DNA from: a phage
Length of the DNA stretch: 64,000 nucleotides
Direction: 5' to 3' (one strand)
Sequence record: PZ445521.1
Under the pieces are notes generated by a model, which worked only from the letters and a program-made list of their open reading frames with translations, did not search any database and had not been told where the DNA came from. The position numbers were made by a program, and so were the translations under genes. Positions 23,221 to 33,537 of this stretch are shown one piece after another (position 1 is the first letter of the stretch; the number at the start of each line of letters is the position of its first letter).

Positions 23221-23274
23221 CCTCATGTTATGTCAGTAAGACTACTATAACACAACACGAGGGACTTGTAAACT
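23221..23274 (-). promoter_or_regulatory. T4-type early promoter plus leader, copy 1 of a 54-nt repeat
   Basis: minus strand GTTTAC, 18-nt spacer, TATAGT, then GAGG RBS; 53/54 identical to 38623-38676. Confidence 0.7.
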
Positions 23275-25330
23275 ACATCTTGAACTTTTTAGACATTCCG
23301 TTGATGTTAACCAAAGAAGCCAAGATTTGAGAAACTTCGTTTTCCTCTTCTTTTGATTCTTCTACAAGGAATTGATTAAATCCAGCCATTGGACGAACTT
23401 CACCAGTTTCCATTAAATGGTCGCCATCATATACTGATTCTTCTAATTGTTCAGAAGGAGGAACGATTGTACCTTCGATTAGATACTTGTTATAAGCAGT
23501 TTCTTTCATAAAGTACGTACTTACTTTATTAATCTTCAGTAAAATTCCACGCGGTAGAATAACTTCAGCTTCTGATGGAAATCCTGATAAATGACCTGGA
23601 ACGATAACTTTGATTCGCTCAGCTCCTTTAATTACCATACCCACGCTAGTTTCAGCATCTTCATTGGCATATGTAGAATGACTACCCATATGCATTAAAT
23701 CTTCTGCATCAACGGAACCTTCTCCTTCGCCAGAAAATACTGCGCCGGAATCATCTAGAGCCATATAGTTTTTACCATGCTCACCGAAGATATTTGGTTT
23801 AAGTGATGTCGATACGAAGTTCTTGAAATAGAACATTTTGTTTTCAATGTTATGACGCAAAGTTTTAAAGGTAACTTCTTGTCCACGGTAAAGTGTAGTT
23901 CCTGGAGGAAGAACTGATCCTTTGGCAAAGGCAGAATCTAACGTCTCGATGTGCTTAATAGCTCTTTCCATGTATTCTTCACGGGTAGAATCTGGTTTAC
24001 CCAAAAGGAACGAGTTCATTTCAACATATGAATCTGCACAATAATCTTCAATTACATCAGATTCAGCCTGAGTCAGTCCTTTTGGAGTTACTTCGGTGCT
24101 TGCGTATTCATATGCCTGAGCAGCAGATTCATTAATCAATTTATAAATGCCATTCATTACAAATTGAATAATAGCTGTCTTTTCATCTGATGCAGCTTTA
24201 GAACCTTTAACTAAATCATTGATAATTTTCTTAATAACATCAAAGCTATTAGAAATATTAATGTCAGCAAGATCGCTTAAAATTTTATCAGTTTTATAAT
24301 CAAAGAATTCTTTATTCTTTAAATATTCTTGAGAACCTTGATATGTTATATCGCTCTGCAGCTTGATAGATGGATCGCGTAAACGTGCATGGGCTAATGC
24401 AATATGATTTCGGAAACTTTCTAGTTCATAATCATTAGATTTAAAACGAGAAGCACTTCTCATACCACCGATAGCTCCTTTGCTGAAGTTTGAACCAATC
24501 TGGATAACGCCAGAGTTCATTGGTCCTTCTGCTTTGTATACCGGAACTTTAGATTCAAACTCTTGATATTTCTTGGCAGCGAAGCTATCGCCTTGAAGTG
24601 AAGCATCGACAGTAGAATATTGAGCTTGTGCTGCTAATCGACGACTAATTTTAGTTTTTTGAATAACCGCTTGATCAGTACGTTTATCATTTTCCAAAGC
24701 AATAGAAGCAGCAACTGCGACAGCTTTAGGAACAGCATTACCTGTTTTAACGTCTACATAAACATCACCGACCTTTGATTCAACTTTTGTGAATAGCTCT
24801 GTTGAAATAGGAGGTACACCTGGAATGTCTTCTAAATTGGCATTTTTACGGTAAACCATAATATATGCATACTTTTTATCATAGTCCCAGATTTCCTTTA
24901 AAAGAACATATCGACCTGCTCCTTTAGTACGCACTAAACGGTCAGCAATAACTTGCATTTGACGAGCAGCGCCATTTGTTTTACTCTTTAGTACGCGGAA
25001 TAGGCATGCGTCAATTTTATACTGCTTCATTGTTTGAAGAGCAGTATCAAAAACAGCGTTAATGACGCCAATTGGATTTCCACCCAAGTTTTTAAGCTTA
25101 ACCAGCGATAATTTCTCGTTGACACCTATCATTACGATATGCATCATTTTATCGCCTGGCTTAACGTTTTTATTTGTATCACCACCTGAGGTGTATGTAC
25201 AAAATCTAAATCCAGGAAGCACGCTTTCTTCACCGGCTTGAATAGCAAAAATTTGTGGTATTTTATGCTTAGGATTTAAGTTAACAACCGGCGCCGAAGC
25301 GCCGTCAAATAATTCTGTAATAAGTTCCAT
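23273..25330 (-). CDS. Alt-family ADP-ribosyltransferase paralog (copy A)
   Basis: 685 aa; N-terminal about 220 aa highly similar to copy B; ART-like YRGQ, FVSTSL and SEAEVILP motifs. Confidence 0.85.
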   Translation of the reverse strand: MELITELFDGASAPVVNLNPKHKIPQIFAIQAGEESVLPGFRFCTYTSGGDTNKNVKPGDKMMHIVMIGVNEKLSLVKLKNLGGNPIGVINAVFDTALQTMKQYKIDACLFRVLKSKTNGAARQMQVIADRLVRTKGAGRYVLLKEIWDYDKKYAYIMVYRKNANLEDIPGVPPISTELFTKVESKVGDVYVDVKTGNAVPKAVAVAASIALENDKRTDQAVIQKTKISRRLAAQAQYSTVDASLQGDSFAAKKYQEFESKVPVYKAEGPMNSGVIQIGSNFSKGAIGGMRSASRFKSNDYELESFRNHIALAHARLRDPSIKLQSDITYQGSQEYLKNKEFFDYKTDKILSDLADINISNSFDVIKKIINDLVKGSKAASDEKTAIIQFVMNGIYKLINESAAQAYEYASTEVTPKGLTQAESDVIEDYCADSYVEMNSFLLGKPDSTREEYMERAIKHIETLDSAFAKGSVLPPGTTLYRGQEVTFKTLRHNIENKMFYFKNFVSTSLKPNIFGEHGKNYMALDDSGAVFSGEGEGSVDAEDLMHMGSHSTYANEDAETSVGMVIKGAERIKVIVPGHLSGFPSEAEVILPRGILLKINKVSTYFMKETAYNKYLIEGTIVPPSEQLEESVYDGDHLMETGEVRPMAGFNQFLVEESKEEENEVSQILASLVNINGMSKKFKM

Positions 25331-25333
25331 GAT

Positions 25334-27430
25334 TTATCCTTGAACGAACTTGTAAGGCATGTTTGTAATATCTATGCAAGACGCAATAATTCCAAGAGAT
25401 GATTCTACTTTCTGTTTAACGTTTGATGAAACAAATGATGCAAAGTCAACTCTGTCTTCTATTTCAATATCACCTGTCATTGCAACCAATTCACCAGTTT
25501 CCATTAAATGGTCTCCATCATAGATTACCGATTCGGTGAGCTCTTCCGTGGTCATAACTTCAGCTTGAATGAGTTTTGTATTATTAGATGTTGTTCCGTC
25601 ATTATTAGAAGCATCAGTTATTTTATTAACTTTGACCATCAATCCACGCGGTAGAATAACTTCAGCTTCTGTTGCTATTCCGAGACTTCCTGGATATACA
25701 ACATTAACTTTATGAGCTCCATCAATTGCCCATCCTATTTGAACTTTAACGTATTCAGGATTTTCTTTATACGCTCTTATTTCGTTTGGATTAATAGTTA
25801 TTCCTTCTTCATTTTTATCAACTGTTAATTCATTGCGAGCTTCTGGTTCTAAAAGACCAATACCAGCATGTGTAATTCCAAAACGTCCAAAAATGATAGG
25901 AGTTAAAGAAGTAGATACAAAATTTCTGAAGTAGAACACTTTATTTTTAACTAACGCTTCATATATAGGAGCAGTCATACTTTGAGCACGATAAACTGTA
26001 ATGCCTTCTGGTATACGGTCACCATTTTCAAAAGCTGAATCTAAGTTATTTATAGCAGATTCAATTTCTTTTTCACTCATTACATCATATCGTTCTGGAT
26101 TGTAACGACCTAAAAGAAGATTATTGATGTCAGTATATCCTGAACCGCAATATTCTCTAATGCCACGCTTTTGTGATGGAGTATATTTAGAACCATCGCG
26201 GGCAATAGTAATATCAATCATTGGACCAGCACCAATTCCAGAAAAACTGTAAATCATTCGTTTGAGGAATTTAGTTTTTGCTGCGTTCCAGGAATTTTTA
26301 GTTATTTCTTCCCAGACTTCATCTGGTTGTCCTTTACGATTTTTATTATGATTAGCAAGCCATTTATCTTTATAATCTTCAAAGAATTGATTTACAGCTG
26401 CTGCGTATTTCTCTAAACATTTTATTGAAGTAGTTGGTTCATTTTTAATTGCATTAAAAATTACTTCTTTAATTTTTTCTGAAACTTCACCGACCCGACT
26501 CAGCGGAAAGAATTTATAATCATAGTGAAGTTCATCTGCCGTTCCTTCAGCAATAATTTTTGCTGCCTTTGTTTTAGAAGCTAATGAATTAATTCCAATT
26601 TTCATTTCTTCTGCTTCGGGAATTAAAGGTGCAGTAGCTGGTTTATTAAAATTAGCTGCTGTAGATTCATACTTCTGGAATAATTCACTTTCAAATCTAG
26701 AAGATTCCAATGACTGACTTTGTGCAATTGCTCTACGGGAAATTTTAACTTTAACGATTACGGCTTGGTCAGAACGTTTATCATTTTCTTGTGCAATTGA
26801 TGCTGCAATTGCTTCATTTTTAGTTACCTGATTTCCGGTATCTTTGTTGATATAAACATCACCAACCTTCGATTCAACCTTAGTAAAGAGTTCAGTACTA
26901 ATTTCTGGAACTCCTGGAATGTCTTCTAGTGATACGTTTTTACGATGTATAAGAATATATGCATACTTTTTATCGTAATCCCAGAGTTCCTTAAGAAGGA
27001 CGTATCTGCCACCTGAACGACTACGGATAAGTCTATCAGCAATAAGTTGAATTTGTCGAGCTTGACCGGCGGTTTTAGACTTAAGAATGCGTAGCATACA
27101 TGCATCAATTTTATACTGACGCATAGTTTGCATTGCAACGGTAAATACTGAATTGATGTAATTAATAGGACTCGGTCCAAGACCCTTTAATTTAGCAATT
27201 GACCCCTTTGCAGTTAATGTAAAAGGAACGATATGCATCATTTTATCGCCCATTTTTAAATCGCGATTAGTATCACCTCCAGATGTATAGGTACATAAAC
27301 GAAAGCCTGGTTGTTCAATTGCATCATCAACATGAACTGAAAAAATTTGTGGTATTTTCTTCTTTGGATTTAAGTTTGTAATCGGAAGAGTAGTATCTTC
27401 GTCAAATAATTCTGTAATGAGTTCCATCAT
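25334..27430 (-). CDS. alt: Alt ADP-ribosyltransferase (copy B, the one matching my memory of T4 Alt)
   Basis: 697-698 aa (two adjacent Met codons); YRAQ, FVSTSL and TEAEVILP motifs. Confidence 0.88.
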   Translation of the reverse strand: MMELITELFDEDTTLPITNLNPKKKIPQIFSVHVDDAIEQPGFRLCTYTSGGDTNRDLKMGDKMMHIVPFTLTAKGSIAKLKGLGPSPINYINSVFTVAMQTMRQYKIDACMLRILKSKTAGQARQIQLIADRLIRSRSGGRYVLLKELWDYDKKYAYILIHRKNVSLEDIPGVPEISTELFTKVESKVGDVYINKDTGNQVTKNEAIAASIAQENDKRSDQAVIVKVKISRRAIAQSQSLESSRFESELFQKYESTAANFNKPATAPLIPEAEEMKIGINSLASKTKAAKIIAEGTADELHYDYKFFPLSRVGEVSEKIKEVIFNAIKNEPTTSIKCLEKYAAAVNQFFEDYKDKWLANHNKNRKGQPDEVWEEITKNSWNAAKTKFLKRMIYSFSGIGAGPMIDITIARDGSKYTPSQKRGIREYCGSGYTDINNLLLGRYNPERYDVMSEKEIESAINNLDSAFENGDRIPEGITVYRAQSMTAPIYEALVKNKVFYFRNFVSTSLTPIIFGRFGITHAGIGLLEPEARNELTVDKNEEGITINPNEIRAYKENPEYVKVQIGWAIDGAHKVNVVYPGSLGIATEAEVILPRGLMVKVNKITDASNNDGTTSNNTKLIQAEVMTTEELTESVIYDGDHLMETGELVAMTGDIEIEDRVDFASFVSSNVKQKVESSLGIIASCIDITNMPYKFVQG

Positions 27431-27450
27431 ATCCTCTCTAGTGTTTATTC

Positions 27451-27458
27451 TATTTATA
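27451..27458 (-). promoter_or_regulatory. late promoter TATAAATA (minus strand) upstream of alt
   Basis: plus tatttata is minus TATAAATA about 21 nt before the alt ATG. Confidence 0.6.
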
Positions 27459-27464
27459 AAATTA

Positions 27465-27482
27465 AAGGCCCGAAGGCCTTTA
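27465..27482 (-). terminator. hairpin overlapping stop of the 62-aa ORF
   Basis: aaaggcccgaaggccttt read directly. Confidence 0.5.
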
Positions 27483-27668
27483 ATAATCTATTGGTAAGAG
27501 AGTACGATATATTTCAAACTTTGGACCTTTTTCATAGGCATCAAATGTTTCTGTGAATTTATTATAAGCATATGCATCTATAAATTCAATCATGATTTGT
27601 GATACAGAAGTAGAAACATCTCCACCTTCTTTTTGAGCCACGACAATTGTTTCTAAGTAAGCTTTCAT
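27480..27668 (-). CDS. hypothetical protein
   Basis: 62 aa ORF between ligase and alt; start overlaps ligase stop. Confidence 0.55.
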   Translation of the reverse strand: MKAYLETIVVAQKEGGDVSTSVSQIMIEFIDAYAYNKFTETFDAYEKGPKFEIYRTLLPIDY

Positions 27669-29128
27669 AAACCAGTTACCTCATGAAAATCACCAAATAC
27701 ATCCTCGAATGTATTAGCTTTAGTTTTATCTTCACGTAAACGAATCGCAATCGGAAGAAATAATTTAACGTAATCAGTGCGGCCATCGGATTTTAACCAA
27801 CCGTTGCATTCGCACTCTAGAATTTTTCCAATATAATAATTTTGATTTTCCATAATGCGAGTACGGTCAAGTTCATGTGATTTTACGCCGGCTTTATCTT
27901 TTAAGCCTGAACCGGCATTTACCTTAATTTTTCCACACTCTGATTCAAGAATGAAACCACCTGCTTTAGTAGGGTCTTTACGGTGAGGATAAATTCCTAC
28001 AATTTTTAAATCAACATCAATTACTTCTTTAAATTTATAAAGATTTTTTGAACGAGCATTTTCCCATAATCCATCGATATTTTTGAGAATAATACCTTCA
28101 AGACCTTGGTCAATATACTTTTTGTAAATTACCTTAGCTTCATCTAGGTTATTTACTACTTGGTTTTCAATTAAAATTACTTTATCATAGCCTGATGTCA
28201 TTTGTTCTAGTTTAGAAAAACGTACATCATATTTTAAACGAAATGCTGGAAGACCATATATTTCTACTAATGGAACATAATCCCAGACCTGAAACTTCAT
28301 GCATTGTGCTTCTTTTTCAGAAATGGTTCCCTTTAAAGATTTATTGGCGATGCCATTAGATGCAGTACGTGATTCAGCTACTTCGGCGAATTCTTTAGCT
28401 TTACTAATTTCAGGATAAGCATCAAAAAGAAAATCTAGGCCTTCTGGTTCCTTTTCAACTTGCTCATGGTATACCAATTCGCCATCAATTAACACACCTT
28501 CTGGATGAATCTGGCGGGCTTCAGCAGTCATTTTGATTAACTCTTCCTTAAGAAGATCTAATCCTAGATATTCATTGCCAGCTCGTGATAAAAGACGAAC
28601 ATCATCTAATTCATCACCTCTGACTTCGGCAAAGCACCGAGCTCCATCAGCTTTTAACTGGGCAAAGGCTGGAAATTTGATATTCTTATTAATGCCTTTT
28701 TCATCATAAGAACTTGCAAGCATTTGAGGTTGTTCAGGAATTAAACCTGGCCAAACTTTGTTCGCAATAGATACTGAAGCGCCACATTCAAGGTCTCGCA
28801 TCATCACTCGACGCAAAACTTCAACATCATCTTTTTTACCATCGGTGATATATCCAGATAATTCCTCAATTGCCGCATTTCCGGTCAATTTCCGAGTAGC
28901 TAACGTGAATTCAATGAAGTCAAGCATATCGGTAAGAGTCAACATTCCAAAACTCTGGGTAGCAATACCAGATTTAGGCCATTTCTTGATATAATACTGC
29001 AACCCACGAGAATAAGTCAGACGATATACTCGTTTAAGCAATTCATTATCTTTATTCTTTTCAAGAATTGCTTGCTTCTGCTTAGTTGAACCAATAGATG
29101 CTATTTCGTTCAGAATTTTAAGAATCAT
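27665..29128 (-). CDS. 30: ATP-dependent DNA ligase gp30
   Basis: 487 aa as T4 ligase; recognised N-terminus. Confidence 0.94.
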   Translation of the reverse strand: MILKILNEIASIGSTKQKQAILEKNKDNELLKRVYRLTYSRGLQYYIKKWPKSGIATQSFGMLTLTDMLDFIEFTLATRKLTGNAAIEELSGYITDGKKDDVEVLRRVMMRDLECGASVSIANKVWPGLIPEQPQMLASSYDEKGINKNIKFPAFAQLKADGARCFAEVRGDELDDVRLLSRAGNEYLGLDLLKEELIKMTAEARQIHPEGVLIDGELVYHEQVEKEPEGLDFLFDAYPEISKAKEFAEVAESRTASNGIANKSLKGTISEKEAQCMKFQVWDYVPLVEIYGLPAFRLKYDVRFSKLEQMTSGYDKVILIENQVVNNLDEAKVIYKKYIDQGLEGIILKNIDGLWENARSKNLYKFKEVIDVDLKIVGIYPHRKDPTKAGGFILESECGKIKVNAGSGLKDKAGVKSHELDRTRIMENQNYYIGKILECECNGWLKSDGRTDYVKLFLPIAIRLREDKTKANTFEDVFGDFHEVTGL

Positions 29129-29394
29129 TGTTCATCCTTTAGAGTTTGGTTTACAGCTCTATTATAAATCAATTCATCATTAAGCTCAGTCAAAGACCTG
29201 TGGTACGTGGTTCTAATTTTATTTCCTTGCATCCAGTGCTTGACGTAAATGAAACCTTGCTCTATACATTTTTTAAAAATTCGTTCGTCTTTTTGAGCTC
29301 GGAATTCTGGATTGCATCTAAAAAATTGATTTACGTGACCGTAATCACGTGTAGTATTACCTTCATTTTCATAAATAGTGTGAACAACAAACAT
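29125..29394 (-). CDS. hypothetical protein (T4 30.x region)
   Basis: 89 aa; translationally coupled to neighbours. Confidence 0.6.
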   Translation of the reverse strand: MFVVHTIYENEGNTTRDYGHVNQFFRCNPEFRAQKDERIFKKCIEQGFIYVKHWMQGNKIRTTYHRSLTELNDELIYNRAVNQTLKDEQ

Positions 29395-30248
29395 TAGAAT
29401 GCTCCTTGGAAAATATTATCACCACTACCACTAGTAAGTCTATTAAAATACCCTGCATCGCCAGGCTTAATATAACTCCATGTATGGAATGGATGCATCT
29501 GATGTGAGTGTGTATAATATGGATGATATGGATTATAAGGATTAAATCCAGGAGTTCTCCAGGTAGTATTCCAACGAAAAGAATCGTTTTTAATCATCTT
29601 TTCGATTGCATCTTTTATAGCTTTTTCACTATCAAAACTTTCTTTATTTTCCTTCGGTGAAAAAAGCTTATTTTCTACATCATTCCATGTATAAACTCGC
29701 TGAGCAGTTTTTGGAATACTGTCACGCTCTCCTCGAGCCATCCAATAAACAGGAACACGTAATATTTCACTTGCATGATCGCAGTGGTGAGCAAGATCAT
29801 CAATATAACAAATTACATTATATTTCTCTTTTGCCTTTTTGAACAACTCTTCTTTTGAAGAATCATGACCACACATCATTACTTCTGAGAAGGCACCAGG
29901 AAAAAGAGCATTCAAATTAAATTGACGATTCAACAGAGCGTCAATAGAATCACCCAATGCTGTAACAGCTACAAAATTATAATCTTCTTTTAATTTGTTA
30001 ATTACACACAGGGCATCTTTATATGGAGACAAGTAACGAATAAAATCTGAACGATTGTATTTTTCAATTAACTTGACGCCAAGTTCTTCATCACAATTAA
30101 AAAGTTTACCTGGAGAAATAAATTTCTCATCTTGGATCATTTTTAAAATATGTTCCAACGGAAGATTATATTTCTGGGCAAAATAAGGAAGTCCTGATTG
30201 CCAGCTTAAACATACTCCATCAATATCAGTTAAAATAGTAGGCTTCAT
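29394..30248 (-). CDS. HAD-superfamily phosphatase-like protein with aromatic/His/Pro-rich C-terminal tail
   Basis: 284 aa; N-terminal DIDGV and internal IDD motifs. Confidence 0.65.
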   Translation of the reverse strand: MKPTILTDIDGVCLSWQSGLPYFAQKYNLPLEHILKMIQDEKFISPGKLFNCDEELGVKLIEKYNRSDFIRYLSPYKDALCVINKLKEDYNFVAVTALGDSIDALLNRQFNLNALFPGAFSEVMMCGHDSSKEELFKKAKEKYNVICYIDDLAHHCDHASEILRVPVYWMARGERDSIPKTAQRVYTWNDVENKLFSPKENKESFDSEKAIKDAIEKMIKNDSFRWNTTWRTPGFNPYNPYHPYYTHSHQMHPFHTWSYIKPGDAGYFNRLTSGSGDNIFQGAF

Positions 30249-30709
30249 AGAGAGTCTCTTAATAGGTTTAACACATCAATAAATTCAGCTTCGGTTAGTA
30301 TTGTATCATCTTTTGTTAGACCACTAGCCATGCTGTGCTTCAAAACTTTTCCTTTCGAGGCTAGTAATGCATCACGAAAGCCCTTGTTTTGAATCGCTGC
30401 TTCAAAATATGCATTTGTATACAACTCTTTCCACGCTGGAGAGTATCTTGAAAATGGAACTCCCAGCCAGAAGAGGGTCCCACGGTCCTGAGCTCTTGCA
30501 TAAGACCTTCCAGCTTGTTGGGCGGCAACCCCGGATAACCCAAATATACGTCTTTGCTGCTCAACATTTTTCACCTTGCATCCTTGGAGGAATCCTTCGA
30601 GACCTCCAAATTGAATACCATCCATGACGAAAGGCCATTGGGCGAAATTACTTAATGCGCATGATGGCCATCTAAAATTGCTTCTAATCTCTAACTCAGA
30701 CATTTTCAA
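30245..30709 (-). CDS. NADAR/YbiA-like (DUF1768) protein
   Basis: 154 aa; LSNFAQWPFVMDG resembles the FSNF..WP..DG core of E. coli YbiA. Confidence 0.6.
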   Translation of the reverse strand: MKMSELEIRSNFRWPSCALSNFAQWPFVMDGIQFGGLEGFLQGCKVKNVEQQRRIFGLSGVAAQQAGRSYARAQDRGTLFWLGVPFSRYSPAWKELYTNAYFEAAIQNKGFRDALLASKGKVLKHSMASGLTKDDTILTEAEFIDVLNLLRDSL

Positions 30710-30902
30710 TACTTATAATTTCAACATCAGCCCAATGACCATAGCAAGGAAGACGAAATTCAACTGGCCAGTTAGGGTCCTTTTCTAATATAATAGACTT
30801 AACTTGTGGTTCTTCATGTTCATCAGTATATGGATTTTTATCTGTTACTTTATATGTGACCTTAATGTACTGAATTCCAAAAATCTTATTAATTATATTC
30901 AT
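30696..30902 (-). CDS. hypothetical protein (30.x region)
   Basis: 68 aa ORF in same-strand operon. Confidence 0.5.
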   Translation of the reverse strand: MNIINKIFGIQYIKVTYKVTDKNPYTDEHEEPQVKSIILEKDPNWPVEFRLPCYGHWADVEIISIENV

Positions 30903-31096
30903 ACTAATTCCTTTAATCCGTAAATAGGAGATAATTCATCACCCATACGAAGGTCTTCATTTCCATCTACCCAGGAAACAATATAAGCCTCTTTTATTTG
31001 AACACCACTCCATTTAAATGGAGGTAGAACCTTAGAAATTAATCCAGGTATACCAACTCCCTTTAATTCAACAGTTTGACCTAAAAAGAATTTCAT
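30899..31096 (-). CDS. hypothetical protein (30.x region)
   Basis: 65 aa ORF, start-stop overlap. Confidence 0.5.
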   Translation of the reverse strand: MKFFLGQTVELKGVGIPGLISKVLPPFKWSGVQIKEAYIVSWVDGNEDLRMGDELSPIYGLKELV

Positions 31097-31419
31097 TAGA
31101 ACCTCATCTGAAAGCCGTGTGATTTAACATTACCACCGCCAATATCAGAAATGTTAATTTCACTCGCAATTGAAGGGTCAATGTCAATTTCACGATTGAG
31201 TTTAGTGATAGCTAAAGTATCACGCCCATTTACTGTACGGAATTCTAAAGGACAAACCACATCAACGTAATTTTTAATCGATTCACTGGTAGGTTGCAAA
31301 TGAGCAGGAAGGTCTTTGGGCGCCTTTGAGAAAACCACTTCACAGAAATTTTTGCGGGTGTCAAAATAAGTAGTCATAAACATAATATTTTCCTCAGTAA
31401 GGGGGCCAAAGCCCCTCAT
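31096..31419 (-). CDS. hypothetical protein (30.x region)
   Basis: 107 aa ORF. Confidence 0.55.
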   Translation of the reverse strand: MRGFGPLTEENIMFMTTYFDTRKNFCEVVFSKAPKDLPAHLQPTSESIKNYVDVVCPLEFRTVNGRDTLAITKLNREIDIDPSIASEINISDIGGGNVKSHGFQMRF

Positions 31420-31424
31420 TTATT

Positions 31425-31790
31425 TTAAATATCAAATTCGTTAAGAACTACATCAAAGATTGCTTCAAGATGCTCAGGTTTAGCTCTGTTACTCAGAATA
31501 TGACGAATCCAAGTTTTAACCAAAAGCTTGCGATTAGCACCATTCCAACAAGGATGAGTCCCTAAATCGCGTTGACGAAAATCATCATCCAGAGCGATTT
31601 TAAAGTTGGAACCTTCCATTGTGATTGAAACCGTGATGCCATTTTCAAATCGCATATAAACGTAATTAGGAGTCATATACTGTTCAATTTCGCATACTGA
31701 TCCATTTTGATGTTTCCAAAGGCAAATAGTATCAATAGAACCTGCAATACCATTAGAAACATATTTACGTTCAAAGTTGATGTAGTTCAT
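31425..31790 (-). CDS. hypothetical protein (30.x region)
   Basis: 121 aa ORF; early promoter just upstream. Confidence 0.6.
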   Translation of the reverse strand: MNYINFERKYVSNGIAGSIDTICLWKHQNGSVCEIEQYMTPNYVYMRFENGITVSITMEGSNFKIALDDDFRQRDLGTHPCWNGANRKLLVKTWIRHILSNRAKPEHLEAIFDVVLNEFDI

Positions 31791-31816
31791 TTTTGTTCTC
31801 CGAGATGTTTAATTGC

Positions 31817-31856
31817 GGTACAGGTATATAATATCATATCCTGTACCAAAGTAAAC
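31817..31856 (-). promoter_or_regulatory. early promoter with hairpin in the spacer
   Basis: minus GTTTAC, 17 nt, TATTAT; 8-bp inverted repeat ggtacagg/cctgtacc. Confidence 0.6.
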
Positions 31857-31860
31857 TATT

Positions 31861-32229
31861 TTATGCAACTTTAATCCAATTATCTAAATTTAATTCACCT
31901 TTGGCTTTCATTTTTTCAATCAAGAGGTCAGCGGTAATACGACCATTTTGATACCACGTAACATCTTCAGAGTAACCAGTTTCTTTATCTTCATAAGTCT
32001 CACAGCGAATTTTACCAAGAATCAAAGTTTTTAATTCATATGTATCTCCAGTAAAAAAGTTAGTTAACATTATTTTCCAAGAGAAATCATCAGAAGGACC
32101 TTCAGGAGTCATACAATCTACAAATTCAAATTGTTCTTTATATAAATGCCACTGAAGTTCTTTAGTTTCGATAGCTTTATAGCCGTCGTGATCTTTACCT
32201 TTGATGTATGAGTTAAGATTGATTTTCAT
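31861..32229 (-). CDS. hypothetical protein (30.x region)
   Basis: 122 aa ORF. Confidence 0.6.
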   Translation of the reverse strand: MKINLNSYIKGKDHDGYKAIETKELQWHLYKEQFEFVDCMTPEGPSDDFSWKIMLTNFFTGDTYELKTLILGKIRCETYEDKETGYSEDVTWYQNGRITADLLIEKMKAKGELNLDNWIKVA

Positions 32230-32315
32230 TTTATTCTCCTTTGTTTGTGTAAAATAATACTATCACAAAGGAACCATACTGTAAACAACTTTGTGCAATC
32301 TTTGGAAAATAAAAA

Positions 32316-32335
32316 AGGACTCCCGAAGGAGTCCT
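32316..32335 (-). terminator. rho-independent terminator
   Basis: hairpin aggactcccgaaggagtcct, T tract on minus strand. Confidence 0.7.
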
Positions 32336-32339
32336 CAAC

Positions 32340-32558
32340 TTATGCTTTCTGCTTACCAAAACGAGAAGCATCATCTCGAAGAACCGCACGTGCTCGGCGC
32401 ATGATCTTCTCAACAGTTTGATTGATACGAGAGTTCGACCCACGCTTGTAACCAGCGCGTTTAGAATCACCAACTTTCTTTTCAACTGCTTTCTTTGCTT
32501 TAACTTGTTTTGCCATTATAAATTCTCTTTTAAATGAAAATGCAGGACTTATTGGCAT
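32340..32558 (-). CDS. small highly basic protein; sits at the rIII position by synteny but not confirmed
   Basis: 58-72 aa (likely start MAKQVKAKK), Lys/Arg-rich. Confidence 0.5.
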   Translation of the reverse strand: MPISPAFSFKREFIMAKQVKAKKAVEKKVGDSKRAGYKRGSNSRINQTVEKIMRRARAVLRDDASRFGKQKA

Positions 32559-32737
32559 TGCCTGCGCAAGCCCTCAAAGGGGTACTTAGGTTTTGAATAT
32601 TTACCGACAGGATAACCATAAACCTCGTCATCATACCACCAAGACTTACACAGATAACACTTTTCTGACGCATGATAGTAACATTCAAGAGGTACACCGT
32701 AAAACTGCCGGGGTCTTAAAACTATAATGATTCGCAA
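32549..32737 (-). CDS. hypothetical Cys/Tyr-rich small protein
   Basis: 62 aa ORF; weak. Confidence 0.35.
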   Translation of the reverse strand: MRIIIVLRPRQFYGVPLECYYHASEKCYLCKSWWYDDEVYGYPVGKYSKPKYPFEGLRRQCQ

Positions 32738-32805
32738 ATCATTAATCAGACAGTTCGACGGCTCCTCGTTTTAACTTCACACTAAGGCAGTGACTCTCCA
32801 ATAAA

Positions 32806-33054
32806 TTACTTCAGTGTTACCACAAAGTGACGAACTGCTTTTCGTGCAGCAGAAGCCAAAGGCTTAGCATATTTAAGTTCATCTTTTTCCTGAAGCTCAG
32901 CAGCTAATGCAGTTTGAGCAGGATTCAGATGTTTGAAATAACGCAGGATTTCAAGAGCTTCGGCTTCAACATCAATAGAAGCGCCATAGTTTTCGTGACC
33001 ATTATTCCATGCGTTTCGTTGCAGTTCAAGAGCGTGTTGTAATTGTTTAATCAT
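32806..33054 (-). CDS. hypothetical protein; 82 aa, the length I recall for T4 RIII (alternative rIII candidate)
   Basis: 82 aa ORF downstream of gene 31. Confidence 0.55.
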   Translation of the reverse strand: MIKQLQHALELQRNAWNNGHENYGASIDVEAEALEILRYFKHLNPAQTALAAELQEKDELKYAKPLASAARKAVRHFVVTLK

Positions 33055-33201
33055 TTAAAAATTCTCGTTAGAGATTAAAACTCGGTAGTCACGTTCTTCT
33101 GAATTTCATCTTCTTTCGACAGATCTCTCAGTTGTAGACTACCACATAGAATTGTTCGGTTAACTTATTATTCCGACACCCAATTCATATTATTATTTAT
33201 A

Positions 33202-33537
33202 TCACTTATAAAGACACGGAATAGCTTTATAGTGACAGGTAACGAATTTTTGTTTAATTTCTTTTGGCTGCTTAAGACCCAGAGCTACAAAAGGATGCGG
33301 AACATTTCGAATTTGACCAACTGGAAGAGAAGTCAAATCACCAACTTCGCAGAAACCTTCAGGAACATCAGGACCGACAGAGTGAACTACACACAGTTCA
33401 GGAACTTCACCTTGAACACGTTTACCGATGATAAGTCCTGATTCTGTAACTTCTTCATCACCGGCTTGTGCAGGTTCAGAAACTAAAATAACATATTCAC
33501 CGACAGCACGAATTGGTAGCTGTTGTACTTCAGACAT
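33202..33537 (-). CDS. 31: head assembly co-chaperonin gp31 (GroES-like)
   Basis: 111 aa as T4 gp31. Confidence 0.9.

What the first reader, a model, noticed from the sequence alone, without database searches (positions are those of the whole stretch)
30245..30709. NADAR/YbiA-like gene next to the ligase and Alt transferases
The 154-aa product has an LSNFAQWPFVMDG segment and overall spacing that resemble the NADAR (DUF1768, E. coli YbiA) family. Members of that family process ADP-ribose-derived substrates and some reverse ADP-ribosylation. It lies about 3 kb from the two ADP-ribosyltransferase genes. It might tune or reverse ADP-ribosylation, or counter a host ADP-ribosylating defence. This is a hypothesis.
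Basis: inference. Interest (0 to 1): 0.55.

Follow-up and report, generated by a model that had tools for sequence, protein, structure and literature searches.

The report
Known phage DNA ADP-ribose remover, AdfN

Summary
The window is Shigella phage JK38, a T4-like Tequatrovirus (100% match). The ORF at 30245..30709 (minus strand) is gene 30.3. The annotated and experimentally used start is the ATG at 30703, which gives 152 aa. The protein is 98% identical (149/152) to T4 gp30.3. T4 gp30.3 was renamed AdfN (anti-DarT factor NADAR) in 2025. Published work shows that it removes ADP-ribose from guanine in DNA and that T4 and T2 need it to grow on DarTG1 hosts.

My tests agree:
- It matches Pfam Phage_30_3 at E 5e-70.
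- A profile-profile comparison with the YbiA/NADAR family gives 97.5% probability (E 5e-12).
- The catalytic E36 and K43 and the phage-clade H123 are present and invariant across the family.
- The C-terminal helix that is lost in the weakened RB69 allele is intact.

The NADAR call and the "counters a host ADP-ribosylating defence" reading are therefore supported. The proposed link to the Alt transferases is not. That neighbourhood is kept in T4 and in one Acinetobacter T4-like phage but is absent in the more distant homologue loci examined. No activity of NADAR enzymes on protein-linked ADP-ribose turned up in the papers read. Verdict: real, ordinary, already known.

The parts
30245..30703 (-). 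Gene 30.3 / adfN coding sequence (152 aa plus stop). The maximal ORF extends to a TTG at 30709.
   Evidence: ORF list. GenBank annotation of the identical record. 149/152 identical to T4 gp30.3. PF08010 E 4.8e-70.
30617..30655 (-). LSNFAQWPFVMDG segment (residues 17-29), the N-terminal NADAR signature. S18, N19, F20 and F25 are invariant in the family.
   Evidence: Coordinates checked. Family alignment. Aligned to YbiA FSNFAAWPIKVDG.
30596..30598 (-). Codon of E36, the catalytic glutamate. It corresponds to E43 of Phytophthora NADAR and E88 of E. coli C7 DarG1; that correspondence is inferred.
   Evidence: Invariant in 76 homologues. Paired with YbiA E48 in hhalign. E36A weakens T4 AdfN (PMC11825919).
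30575..30577 (-). Codon of K43, the phosphate-coordinating lysine. It corresponds to K50 and K95 in the same two solved or tested NADARs; that correspondence is inferred.
   Evidence: At least 90% conserved. Paired with YbiA K55. K43A weakens T4 AdfN. The role of the equivalent lysine is described in PMC11543638.
30335..30337 (-). Codon of H123. This histidine marks the phage gp30.3 clade. YbiA-type NADARs have Glu at this site and DarG1-type NADARs have Asp.
   Evidence: Invariant in the family. It lies just after predicted strand 120-122.
30248..30292 (-). Last 15 codons, forming the C-terminal helix (residues 138-152). This part is missing from the frameshifted, weakened RB69 allele and is intact here.
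   Evidence: Helix 138-151 in the model. Sequence checked. RB69 truncation described in PMC11825919.
30245..30248 (-). ATGA overlap between the stop codon of 30.3 and the start codon of 30.2, suggesting translational coupling. The 30.3 start also overlaps the end of 30.4 by 8 nt (30696..30703).
   Evidence: Sequence read. Annotation.

Best explanation
The gene is the JK38 orthologue of T4 gene 30.3 (adfN). It encodes a minimal, single-domain NADAR-fold ADP-ribosylglycohydrolase. When the host DarTG1 toxin-antitoxin system senses infection, its DarT1 toxin attaches ADP-ribose to guanine bases in phage DNA and blocks replication. AdfN cleaves the N-glycosidic bond between the ribose and the guanine and releases ADP-ribose, so the DNA can replicate again. 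By analogy with solved NADAR structures, E36 holds the distal ribose and K43 the diphosphate, and H123 takes the place of the third catalytic acidic residue found in other NADAR clades. What is shown here: orthology, superfamily membership, fold, intact catalytic residues and full length. What is taken from the literature on the 98%-identical T4 protein: enzymatic activity on G-ADPr DNA, and necessity and sufficiency against DarTG1. What is inferred: that the JK38 allele behaves the same way.
For: - Identity of the locus: the window is 100% identical to Shigella phage JK38, and the gene is annotated there as gp30.3.
- Orthology: 149/152 identity to T4 gp30.3 with the same 30.4-30.3-30.2-30.1-ligase order. 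The three substitutions (V59 for L, L114 for Q, M125 for I) fall at positions that are not conserved in the family.
- Family: PF08010 at 234 bits.
- Link to NADAR by sequence: 14 of 76 family members also hit Pfam NADAR PF08719, best E 1.5e-7. The family profile finds YbiA (2b3w) as its only PDB hit, E 0.009. hhalign against one YbiA sequence gives 94%. hhalign against a YbiA-family alignment gives 97.5%, E 5.4e-12, over 125 columns.
- Catalytic residues: E36 and H123 are invariant and K43 is at least 90% conserved.
- Published function of T4 AdfN: deleting adfN sensitises T4 and T2 to DarTG1. Expressing it from a plasmid rescues RB69. E36A and K43A variants are impaired. Purified protein removes ADP-ribose from DarT1-modified DNA (PMC11825919).
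- Independent biochemistry: the T4 protein is active on G-ADPr but not on T-ADPr (PMC11125620).
- Independent genetics: an independent transposon screen lost all adfN insertions on a DarTG1 host (bioRxiv 10.1101/2025.11.20.689424).
Against: - Nothing was measured on the JK38 protein itself.
- The Pfam NADAR model and the NCBIfam YbiA model do not reach significance on this sequence directly, so superfamily membership rests on profile-profile and fold evidence.
- T4 AdfN does not rescue E. coli from DarT1 outside infection and only partly protects phages that are not T-even. The in-cell mechanism therefore has an unidentified component.
- My sequence-only hhalign places H123 opposite YbiA H126, one residue after the catalytic E125. 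The literature treats H123 as the structural equivalent of that Glu. I could not superpose coordinates to settle this.
Confidence: 0.93

Rival explanations
1. The enzyme reverses or tunes the phage's own protein ADP-ribosylation. Under this reading it removes ADP-ribose from arginines modified by Alt (or ModA/ModB) and sits near the alt genes for that reason.
For: Two Alt-type transferase genes lie 2.8-7 kb away on the same strand. [quoted passage not shown]
Against: - The neighbourhood is not conserved. Ligase, Alt and 30.2 lie within 4 kb of the homologue only in T4 and Acinetobacter phage KARL-1, and in KARL-1 alt is on the opposite strand.
- They are absent near the homologue in Vibrio K567, Ralstonia RSP15, Klebsiella Jiaodavirus, Aeromonas avDM6 and three metagenomic phage contigs.
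- Every substrate reported for NADARs in the papers read is a base N-glycoside: guanine, and for some clades cytosine, in DNA or RNA.
- In a genome-wide T4 screen adfN was dispensable on plain E. coli K-12 and became essential only with DarTG1.
- I found no published test of arginine-ADPr hydrolysis by gp30.3, so this is not formally excluded.
Confidence: 0.03
2. It is a YbiA-type housekeeping N-glycosidase that destroys reactive riboflavin-pathway intermediates, or a similar small-molecule ribosyl N-glycosidase.
For: It has the same fold and the same Glu/Lys pair as E. coli YbiA. There is a weak hit to the YbiA equivalog model TIGR02464, E 0.14, at residues 16-53.
Against: - TIGR02464 scores 12.5 bits against a cut-off of 73.7.
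- The Glu that defines the YbiA family is replaced by an invariant His.
- The YbiA-family stretch after that position, built on D130-x-Y132-W133 and a run of conserved glycines, has no counterpart here.
- No riboflavin genes are nearby.
- The phenotype of the T4 orthologue is specific to DarTG1.
Confidence: 0.02
3. Besides, or instead of, repairing DNA, it degrades soluble ADP-ribose-derived molecules or RNA-linked ADP-ribose produced by other host defences. On this reading anti-DarTG1 activity is only one of its roles.
For: Iyer et al. proposed soluble ADPr derivatives as the preferred substrates of phage NADARs (PMC9503650). All NADAR families tested are reported to also remove G-ADPr from RNA in vitro (PMC12945103). 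The family is very widespread, with 1511 phage records, in varied neighbourhoods. One example is next to a PRPP-synthetase-like gene in Aeromonas avDM6, and another lies about 2.6 kb from a NUDIX gene on a 308-kb metagenomic contig.
Against: No such substrate has been shown for gp30.3. The T4 NADAR is not among the NADARs listed as reversing cytidine-ADPr. It does not counter DarTG2.
Confidence: 0.1

Closest known systems
T4 gp30.3 = AdfN (anti-DarT factor NADAR); Pfam PF08010 Phage_30_3
   Same: 98% identical over all 152 residues. Same gene order (30.4-30.3-30.2-30.1-ligase). Same E36, K43 and H123. Full-length C-terminus.
   Different: Three conservative substitutions at variable positions (V59, L114, M125). 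No functional data exist for the JK38 allele.
DarG1 antitoxins (DarT1-associated NADARs, BC4488 subfamily; e.g. Geobacter lovleyi NADAR 8bat, E. coli C7 NADAR)
   Different: It is an orphan with no DarT1 partner gene nearby. It lacks the N-terminal extension (152 aa against 219 aa). It has His where DarG1 has the catalytic Asp. The T4 protein cannot replace DarG1 in uninfected cells.
E. coli YbiA (2b3w) and the YbiA/COG3236 family (Pfam PF08719 NADAR, TIGR02464)
   Different: Only about 17-21% identical. Below the thresholds of both curated models. His replaces the family-defining Glu. YbiA's physiological role is in riboflavin-intermediate clean-up.
Phytophthora nicotianae NADAR (8bau, ADP-ribose complex)
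   Different: Eukaryotic, 189 aa, with Glu at the third catalytic site. Its biological role is unknown.
AdfN of phages Bas32 and Bas60 (other phage NADAR clades)
   Same: Orphan phage NADARs that neutralise DarTG1 and are specific for guanine.
   Different: They belong to different NADAR clades, were acquired independently, and work without any T-even-specific factor.

Membership tests
Phage gp30.3 / AdfN family (Pfam PF08010) | Match to the PF08010 model above its gathering score | tested here: met
   234.2 bits against a cut-off of 36, E 4.8e-70, covering model positions 1-138 of 138.
Phage gp30.3 / AdfN family (Pfam PF08010) | Orthology to T4 gene 30.3 (high identity and the same genomic position) | tested here: met
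   149/152 identical. The flanking genes 30.4, 30.2, 30.1 and ligase are 92-99% identical and in the same order.
Phage gp30.3 / AdfN family (Pfam PF08010) | Invariant His in the last strand (the clade marker), together with the catalytic Glu and Lys | tested here: met
   E36 and H123 are invariant and K43 is at least 90% conserved in 76 sequences. All three are present here.
Phage gp30.3 / AdfN family (Pfam PF08010) | Intact C-terminal helix, whose loss weakens the RB69 allele | tested here: met
   The ORF runs to residue 152. The model has a helix at 138-151 with pLDDT 94-98.
Phage gp30.3 / AdfN family (Pfam PF08010) | Removal of ADP-ribose from guanine in DNA, and protection of the phage from DarTG1 | not testable with these tools
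   Shown only for the T4 protein (PMC11825919, PMC11125620, bioRxiv 2025.11.20.689424).
NADAR superfamily (YbiA fold; Pfam PF08719) | Direct significant match to the PF08719 / DUF1768 model | tested here: not met
   No PF08719 hit even at E <= 10 for this protein. Only 14 of 76 homologues hit it. This reflects how Pfam splits the superfamily into two entries, not a lack of homology.
NADAR superfamily (YbiA fold; Pfam PF08719) | Homology detectable at the profile level | tested here: met
   hhalign of the family alignment against the YbiA-family alignment gives 97.5% probability, E 5.4e-12, over 125 columns. YbiA is the only PDB hit of the family profile.
NADAR superfamily (YbiA fold; Pfam PF08719) | The alpha+beta YbiA fold: a helical core flanked by two small beta-hairpins | tested here: met
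YbiA-type N-glycosidase (NCBIfam TIGR02464 equivalog) | Score above the equivalog cut-off, and the conserved Glu in the last strand | tested here: not met
   12.5 bits against a cut-off of 73.7. His sits where the Glu is expected.
DarG1 antitoxin (DarT1-linked NADAR) | Encoded next to a DarT1 toxin gene; N-terminal extension; catalytic Asp | tested here: not met
   No DarT-like gene lies among the neighbours. The protein is the 152-aa core domain only. His stands in place of Asp.

The most novel reading that the evidence does not exclude
T4 AdfN needs an unidentified T-even-specific factor for full activity (PMC11825919). The gene immediately downstream, 30.2, overlaps the adfN stop codon (ATGA). 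I show here that gp30.2 is a HAD-superfamily enzyme resembling 5'(3')-deoxyribonucleotidases. A nucleotidase of the same kind also directly follows the NADAR gene in the distant Vibrio phage K567. The most novel reading not excluded is that gp30.2 is that partner, for example by disposing of released ADP-ribose or nucleotide products, or by stabilising AdfN. Three observations argue against it. The pairing is absent in many other phages. Both genes are simply near-core Straboviridae genes with matching distributions. The paper on the genome-wide T4 screen on DarTG1 reports adfN and does not mention 30.2.
Probability: 0.05. Interest if true: 0.45.

Novelty: already known. Interest (0 to 1): 0.1.

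Why it matters
The finding adds no new biology. It shows that JK38, like nearly all Tequatroviruses, carries an intact anti-DarTG1 counter-defence gene. That is useful for predicting host range, for example for phage-therapy candidates facing DarTG1-positive E. coli or Shigella. It is also a good calibration case. A reader working from raw sequence recognised a remote NADAR relationship that the standard Pfam and NCBIfam NADAR models miss on this protein, and proposed the function that experiments established in 2024-2025.

Tried and rejected
- **Direct family scans.** The Pfam NADAR and NCBIfam YbiA models gave no significant hit. Profile-profile and fold comparison were needed.
- **Single-sequence search of PDB sequences.** It gave only a spurious E 0.29 hit to an ATP pyrophosphatase. 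I disregarded it.
- **Plasmid search with a NADAR-like peptide written from memory.** This was meant to collect NADAR sequences. I abandoned it in favour of the real E. coli YbiA gene and used none of its results.
- **Promoter and terminator scan of 27000..33500.** It found 25 promoter-like sites against 21.4 expected, which is uninformative. I made no claim about a transcription unit.
- **Functional link to Alt.** I rejected this on the lack of conserved neighbourhood and on substrate chemistry.
- **gp30.2 as the AdfN cofactor.** I followed this up. The HAD/deoxyribonucleotidase-like assignment is solid, but the co-occurrence is uninformative: 1440 records against 1511, with the same taxa. 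Adjacency is not general, and the paper on the published transposon screen does not mention 30.2.
- **Foreign origin from GC content.** The gene's GC (42.7%) is at the 96th percentile of same-size windows, only about 1.9 sd above the mean, so this is suggestive at most.

Full report
**What is there.**
The region holds a minus-strand ORF at 30245..30709, 154 codons counted from a TTG. A 3-kb stretch around it is 100% identical to Shigella phage JK38 (MK962755.1, Tequatrovirus), and 491 other T4-like phage records cover at least 80% of that stretch. In JK38 the gene is annotated as "gp30.3 protein". It starts at the ATG at window 30703 and encodes 152 aa. T4 gene 30.3 has the same length and start. 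The ATG overlaps the end of gene 30.4 by 8 nt, and the stop codon overlaps the start of gene 30.2 as ATGA. The quoted LSNFAQWPFVMDG segment is residues 17-29.

**What family it belongs to.**
Pfam assigns the protein to PF08010 Phage_30_3 (E 4.8e-70, 234 bits against a cut-off of 36). It gives no direct hit to PF08719 NADAR. NCBIfam gives only a sub-threshold hit (E 0.14, 12.5 bits against 73.7) to TIGR02464, the YbiA equivalog, at residues 16-53. PHROGs places it in phrog_652, of unknown function.

A database search returned 115 homologues, all carrying PF08010. Several are named "YbiA (DUF1768 family)" by JGI, and one cluster carries both PF08010 and PF08719. In a 76-sequence alignment the invariant residues are P13, A16, L17, S18, N19, F20, F25, E36, G37, F38, Q40, A61, A112, H123, T134, L136 and T137. 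K43 is at least 90% conserved.

Four results link the family to NADAR by sequence:
- Scanning every member against Pfam, 14 of 76 also hit NADAR, best E 1.5e-7.
- The family profile finds E. coli YbiA (2b3w) as its only hit among PDB sequences, E 0.009.
- hhalign against the single YbiA sequence gives 94% probability.
- hhalign against a 37-sequence YbiA-family alignment gives 97.5%, E 5.4e-12, over 125 columns. It pairs E36 with YbiA E48 and K43 with YbiA K55.

**Fold.**
AlphaFold2 with the family alignment gives a confident model (mean pLDDT 93.4, pTM 0.88). It has two small beta-hairpins (25-32 and 76-85) around a helical core, followed by a C-terminal helix at 138-151.
- Foldseek against the PDB returns YbiA 2b3w (TM 0.70), Phytophthora NADAR with ADP-ribose 8bau, and Geobacter lovleyi NADAR 8bat as the top three hits, each with probability 1.00. 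Everything else has E > 2.

**What is already known.**
The literature search shows that this gene family has been characterised.
[quoted passage not shown] These have a His in place of the catalytic Glu of the YbiA family and the Asp of DarT1-linked NADARs (PMC11543638, PMC11125620).
- Purified T4 gp30.3 removes ADP-ribose from guanine but not from thymine in DNA (PMC11125620).
- A 2026 paper lists only the NADAR and YbiA-type families as reversing cytidine-ADPr, not the phage NADAR (PMC12945103).
- Johannesman et al. (Nat Commun 2025, PMC11825919) mapped DarTG1 resistance of T-even phages to gene 30.3 and renamed it adfN. They showed that it is necessary in T4 and T2 and sufficient for RB69. 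E36A and K43A variants are impaired. The RB69 allele, truncated by 15 residues, is weak. The purified enzyme clears ADP-ribose from DarT1-modified DNA.
- A transposon screen in T4 independently found adfN dispensable on K-12 but lost on a DarTG1 host (bioRxiv 10.1101/2025.11.20.689424).

**How this copy compares.**
The JK38 protein is 149/152 identical to T4 AdfN. The three differences (V59, L114, M125) are at positions that are not conserved across the family. E36, K43 and H123 are present (window 30596-30598, 30575-30577 and 30335-30337), and the last 15 residues are intact. The flanking genes 30.4, 30.2, 30.1 and ligase are 92-99% identical to T4 and in the same order. I conclude with high confidence that this is a functional adfN orthologue. 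No measurement exists for this particular allele.

**The Alt hypothesis.**
I looked at the neighbourhood of gp30.3 homologues in progressively more distant phages.
- Acinetobacter phage KARL-1 keeps the order 30.3, 30.2-like gene, ligase, alt, with alt on the opposite strand.
- Vibrio K567, Ralstonia RSP15, Klebsiella Jiaodavirus and Aeromonas avDM6 have no detectable Alt, ligase or, by tblastn, 30.2 homologue within 4 kb. Several of these copies sit inside tRNA clusters or next to unrelated genes.
- Three metagenomic phage contexts also lack an ADP-ribosyltransferase nearby.
- In the papers I read, all reported NADAR substrates are base-linked.
Proximity to alt in JK38 and T4 therefore looks like genome-backbone layout, not functional coupling. 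I found no published test of Arg-ADPr hydrolysis by gp30.3, so the idea is unsupported but not formally excluded.

**An open point, and a side result.**
T4 AdfN does not rescue uninfected E. coli from DarT1 and only partly protects phages that are not T-even. The authors infer an unknown T-even factor and rule out DNA hypermodification as the explanation. While checking neighbours I found that gp30.2 (window 29394..30248) is a HAD-superfamily enzyme, although it has no Pfam hit.
- Its family alignment has invariant D8 and D10, conserved T96 and A97, and invariant K132, D150 and D151, which are HAD motifs I-IV.
- Its only PDB sequence hit is a 5'(3')-deoxyribonucleotidase.
- Its model is confident over residues 1-195. 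It matches HAD hydrolases, among them several deoxyribonucleotidases with the best target-normalised TM scores of the list, 0.62-0.71.
- In Vibrio K567 the gene overlapping the end of the NADAR gene is a Pfam NT5C deoxyribonucleotidase (E 6.5e-11). It aligns to the 30.2 profile at 80% probability.
This makes gp30.2 a conceivable partner, but the evidence is thin. The adjacency is absent elsewhere. Both genes are near-core Straboviridae genes with the same taxonomic spread, 1440 against 1511 phage records. The paper on the DarTG1 transposon screen does not mention 30.2.

**Verdict.**
The gene and its mechanism are already published, so the finding is ordinary. Interest is low and the novelty class is "already known".

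Noticed in passing
window 29394..30248 (-), gene 30.2: gp30.2 has no Pfam family, but it is a HAD-superfamily enzyme resembling 5'(3')-deoxyribonucleotidases. The DxD, T/A, K and DD motifs are conserved, and its model matches 2jao, 2i7d and 3bwv. It ends in a roughly 90-residue low-confidence tail rich in Pro, Tyr and His. Its start codon overlaps the adfN stop codon (ATGA). A nucleotidase of the NT5C type also directly follows the NADAR gene in Vibrio phage K567.
   Followed up: yes
window 30361..30567 (-), inside gene 30.3 in the +1 frame: This is the internal ORF 30.3' (68 aa here, 75 aa in T4; Pfam DUF2883, E 1e-37). The frame also stays open in Dhakavirus relatives whose gp30.3 is about 85% identical. 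The JK38 copy ends 7 codons earlier than T4's. I did not assess whether it is really translated.
   Followed up: partly
window about 23273..25330 and 25334..27430 (-): JK38 carries two full-length Alt-type ADP-ribosyltransferase paralogues, 41% identical to each other. At the same position T4 has one alt gene plus the short remnants alt.-1 and alt.-2.
   Followed up: partly
window 30245..30703: Gene 30.3 has 42.7% GC against a window mean of 36.3% (96th percentile of same-size windows, about 1.9 sd). This is mildly consistent with the published idea that the gene was captured from a bacterial source.
   Followed up: partly
literature, PMC11125620 methods: The T4 gp30.3 construct is listed as 'residues 1-208', although the T4 gene encodes 152 aa. 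This may include vector tags or may be a typing error. It remains unexplained.
   Followed up: no
L008:4809-5600 (Aeromonas phage avDM6) and L011:8115-8879 (308-kb metagenomic phage contig): In some distant phages the gp30.3-type NADAR lies near NAD/ADP-ribose metabolism genes. One lies about 400 nt upstream of a ribose-phosphate pyrophosphokinase-like gene. Another lies about 2.6 kb from a NUDIX hydrolase and a Thg1-like gene.
   Followed up: no
window 27480..27668 (-), gene alt.1: The small ORF between alt and the ligase gene matches Pfam PF24647 'Phage blade protein' (E 7.5e-29).
   Followed up: no
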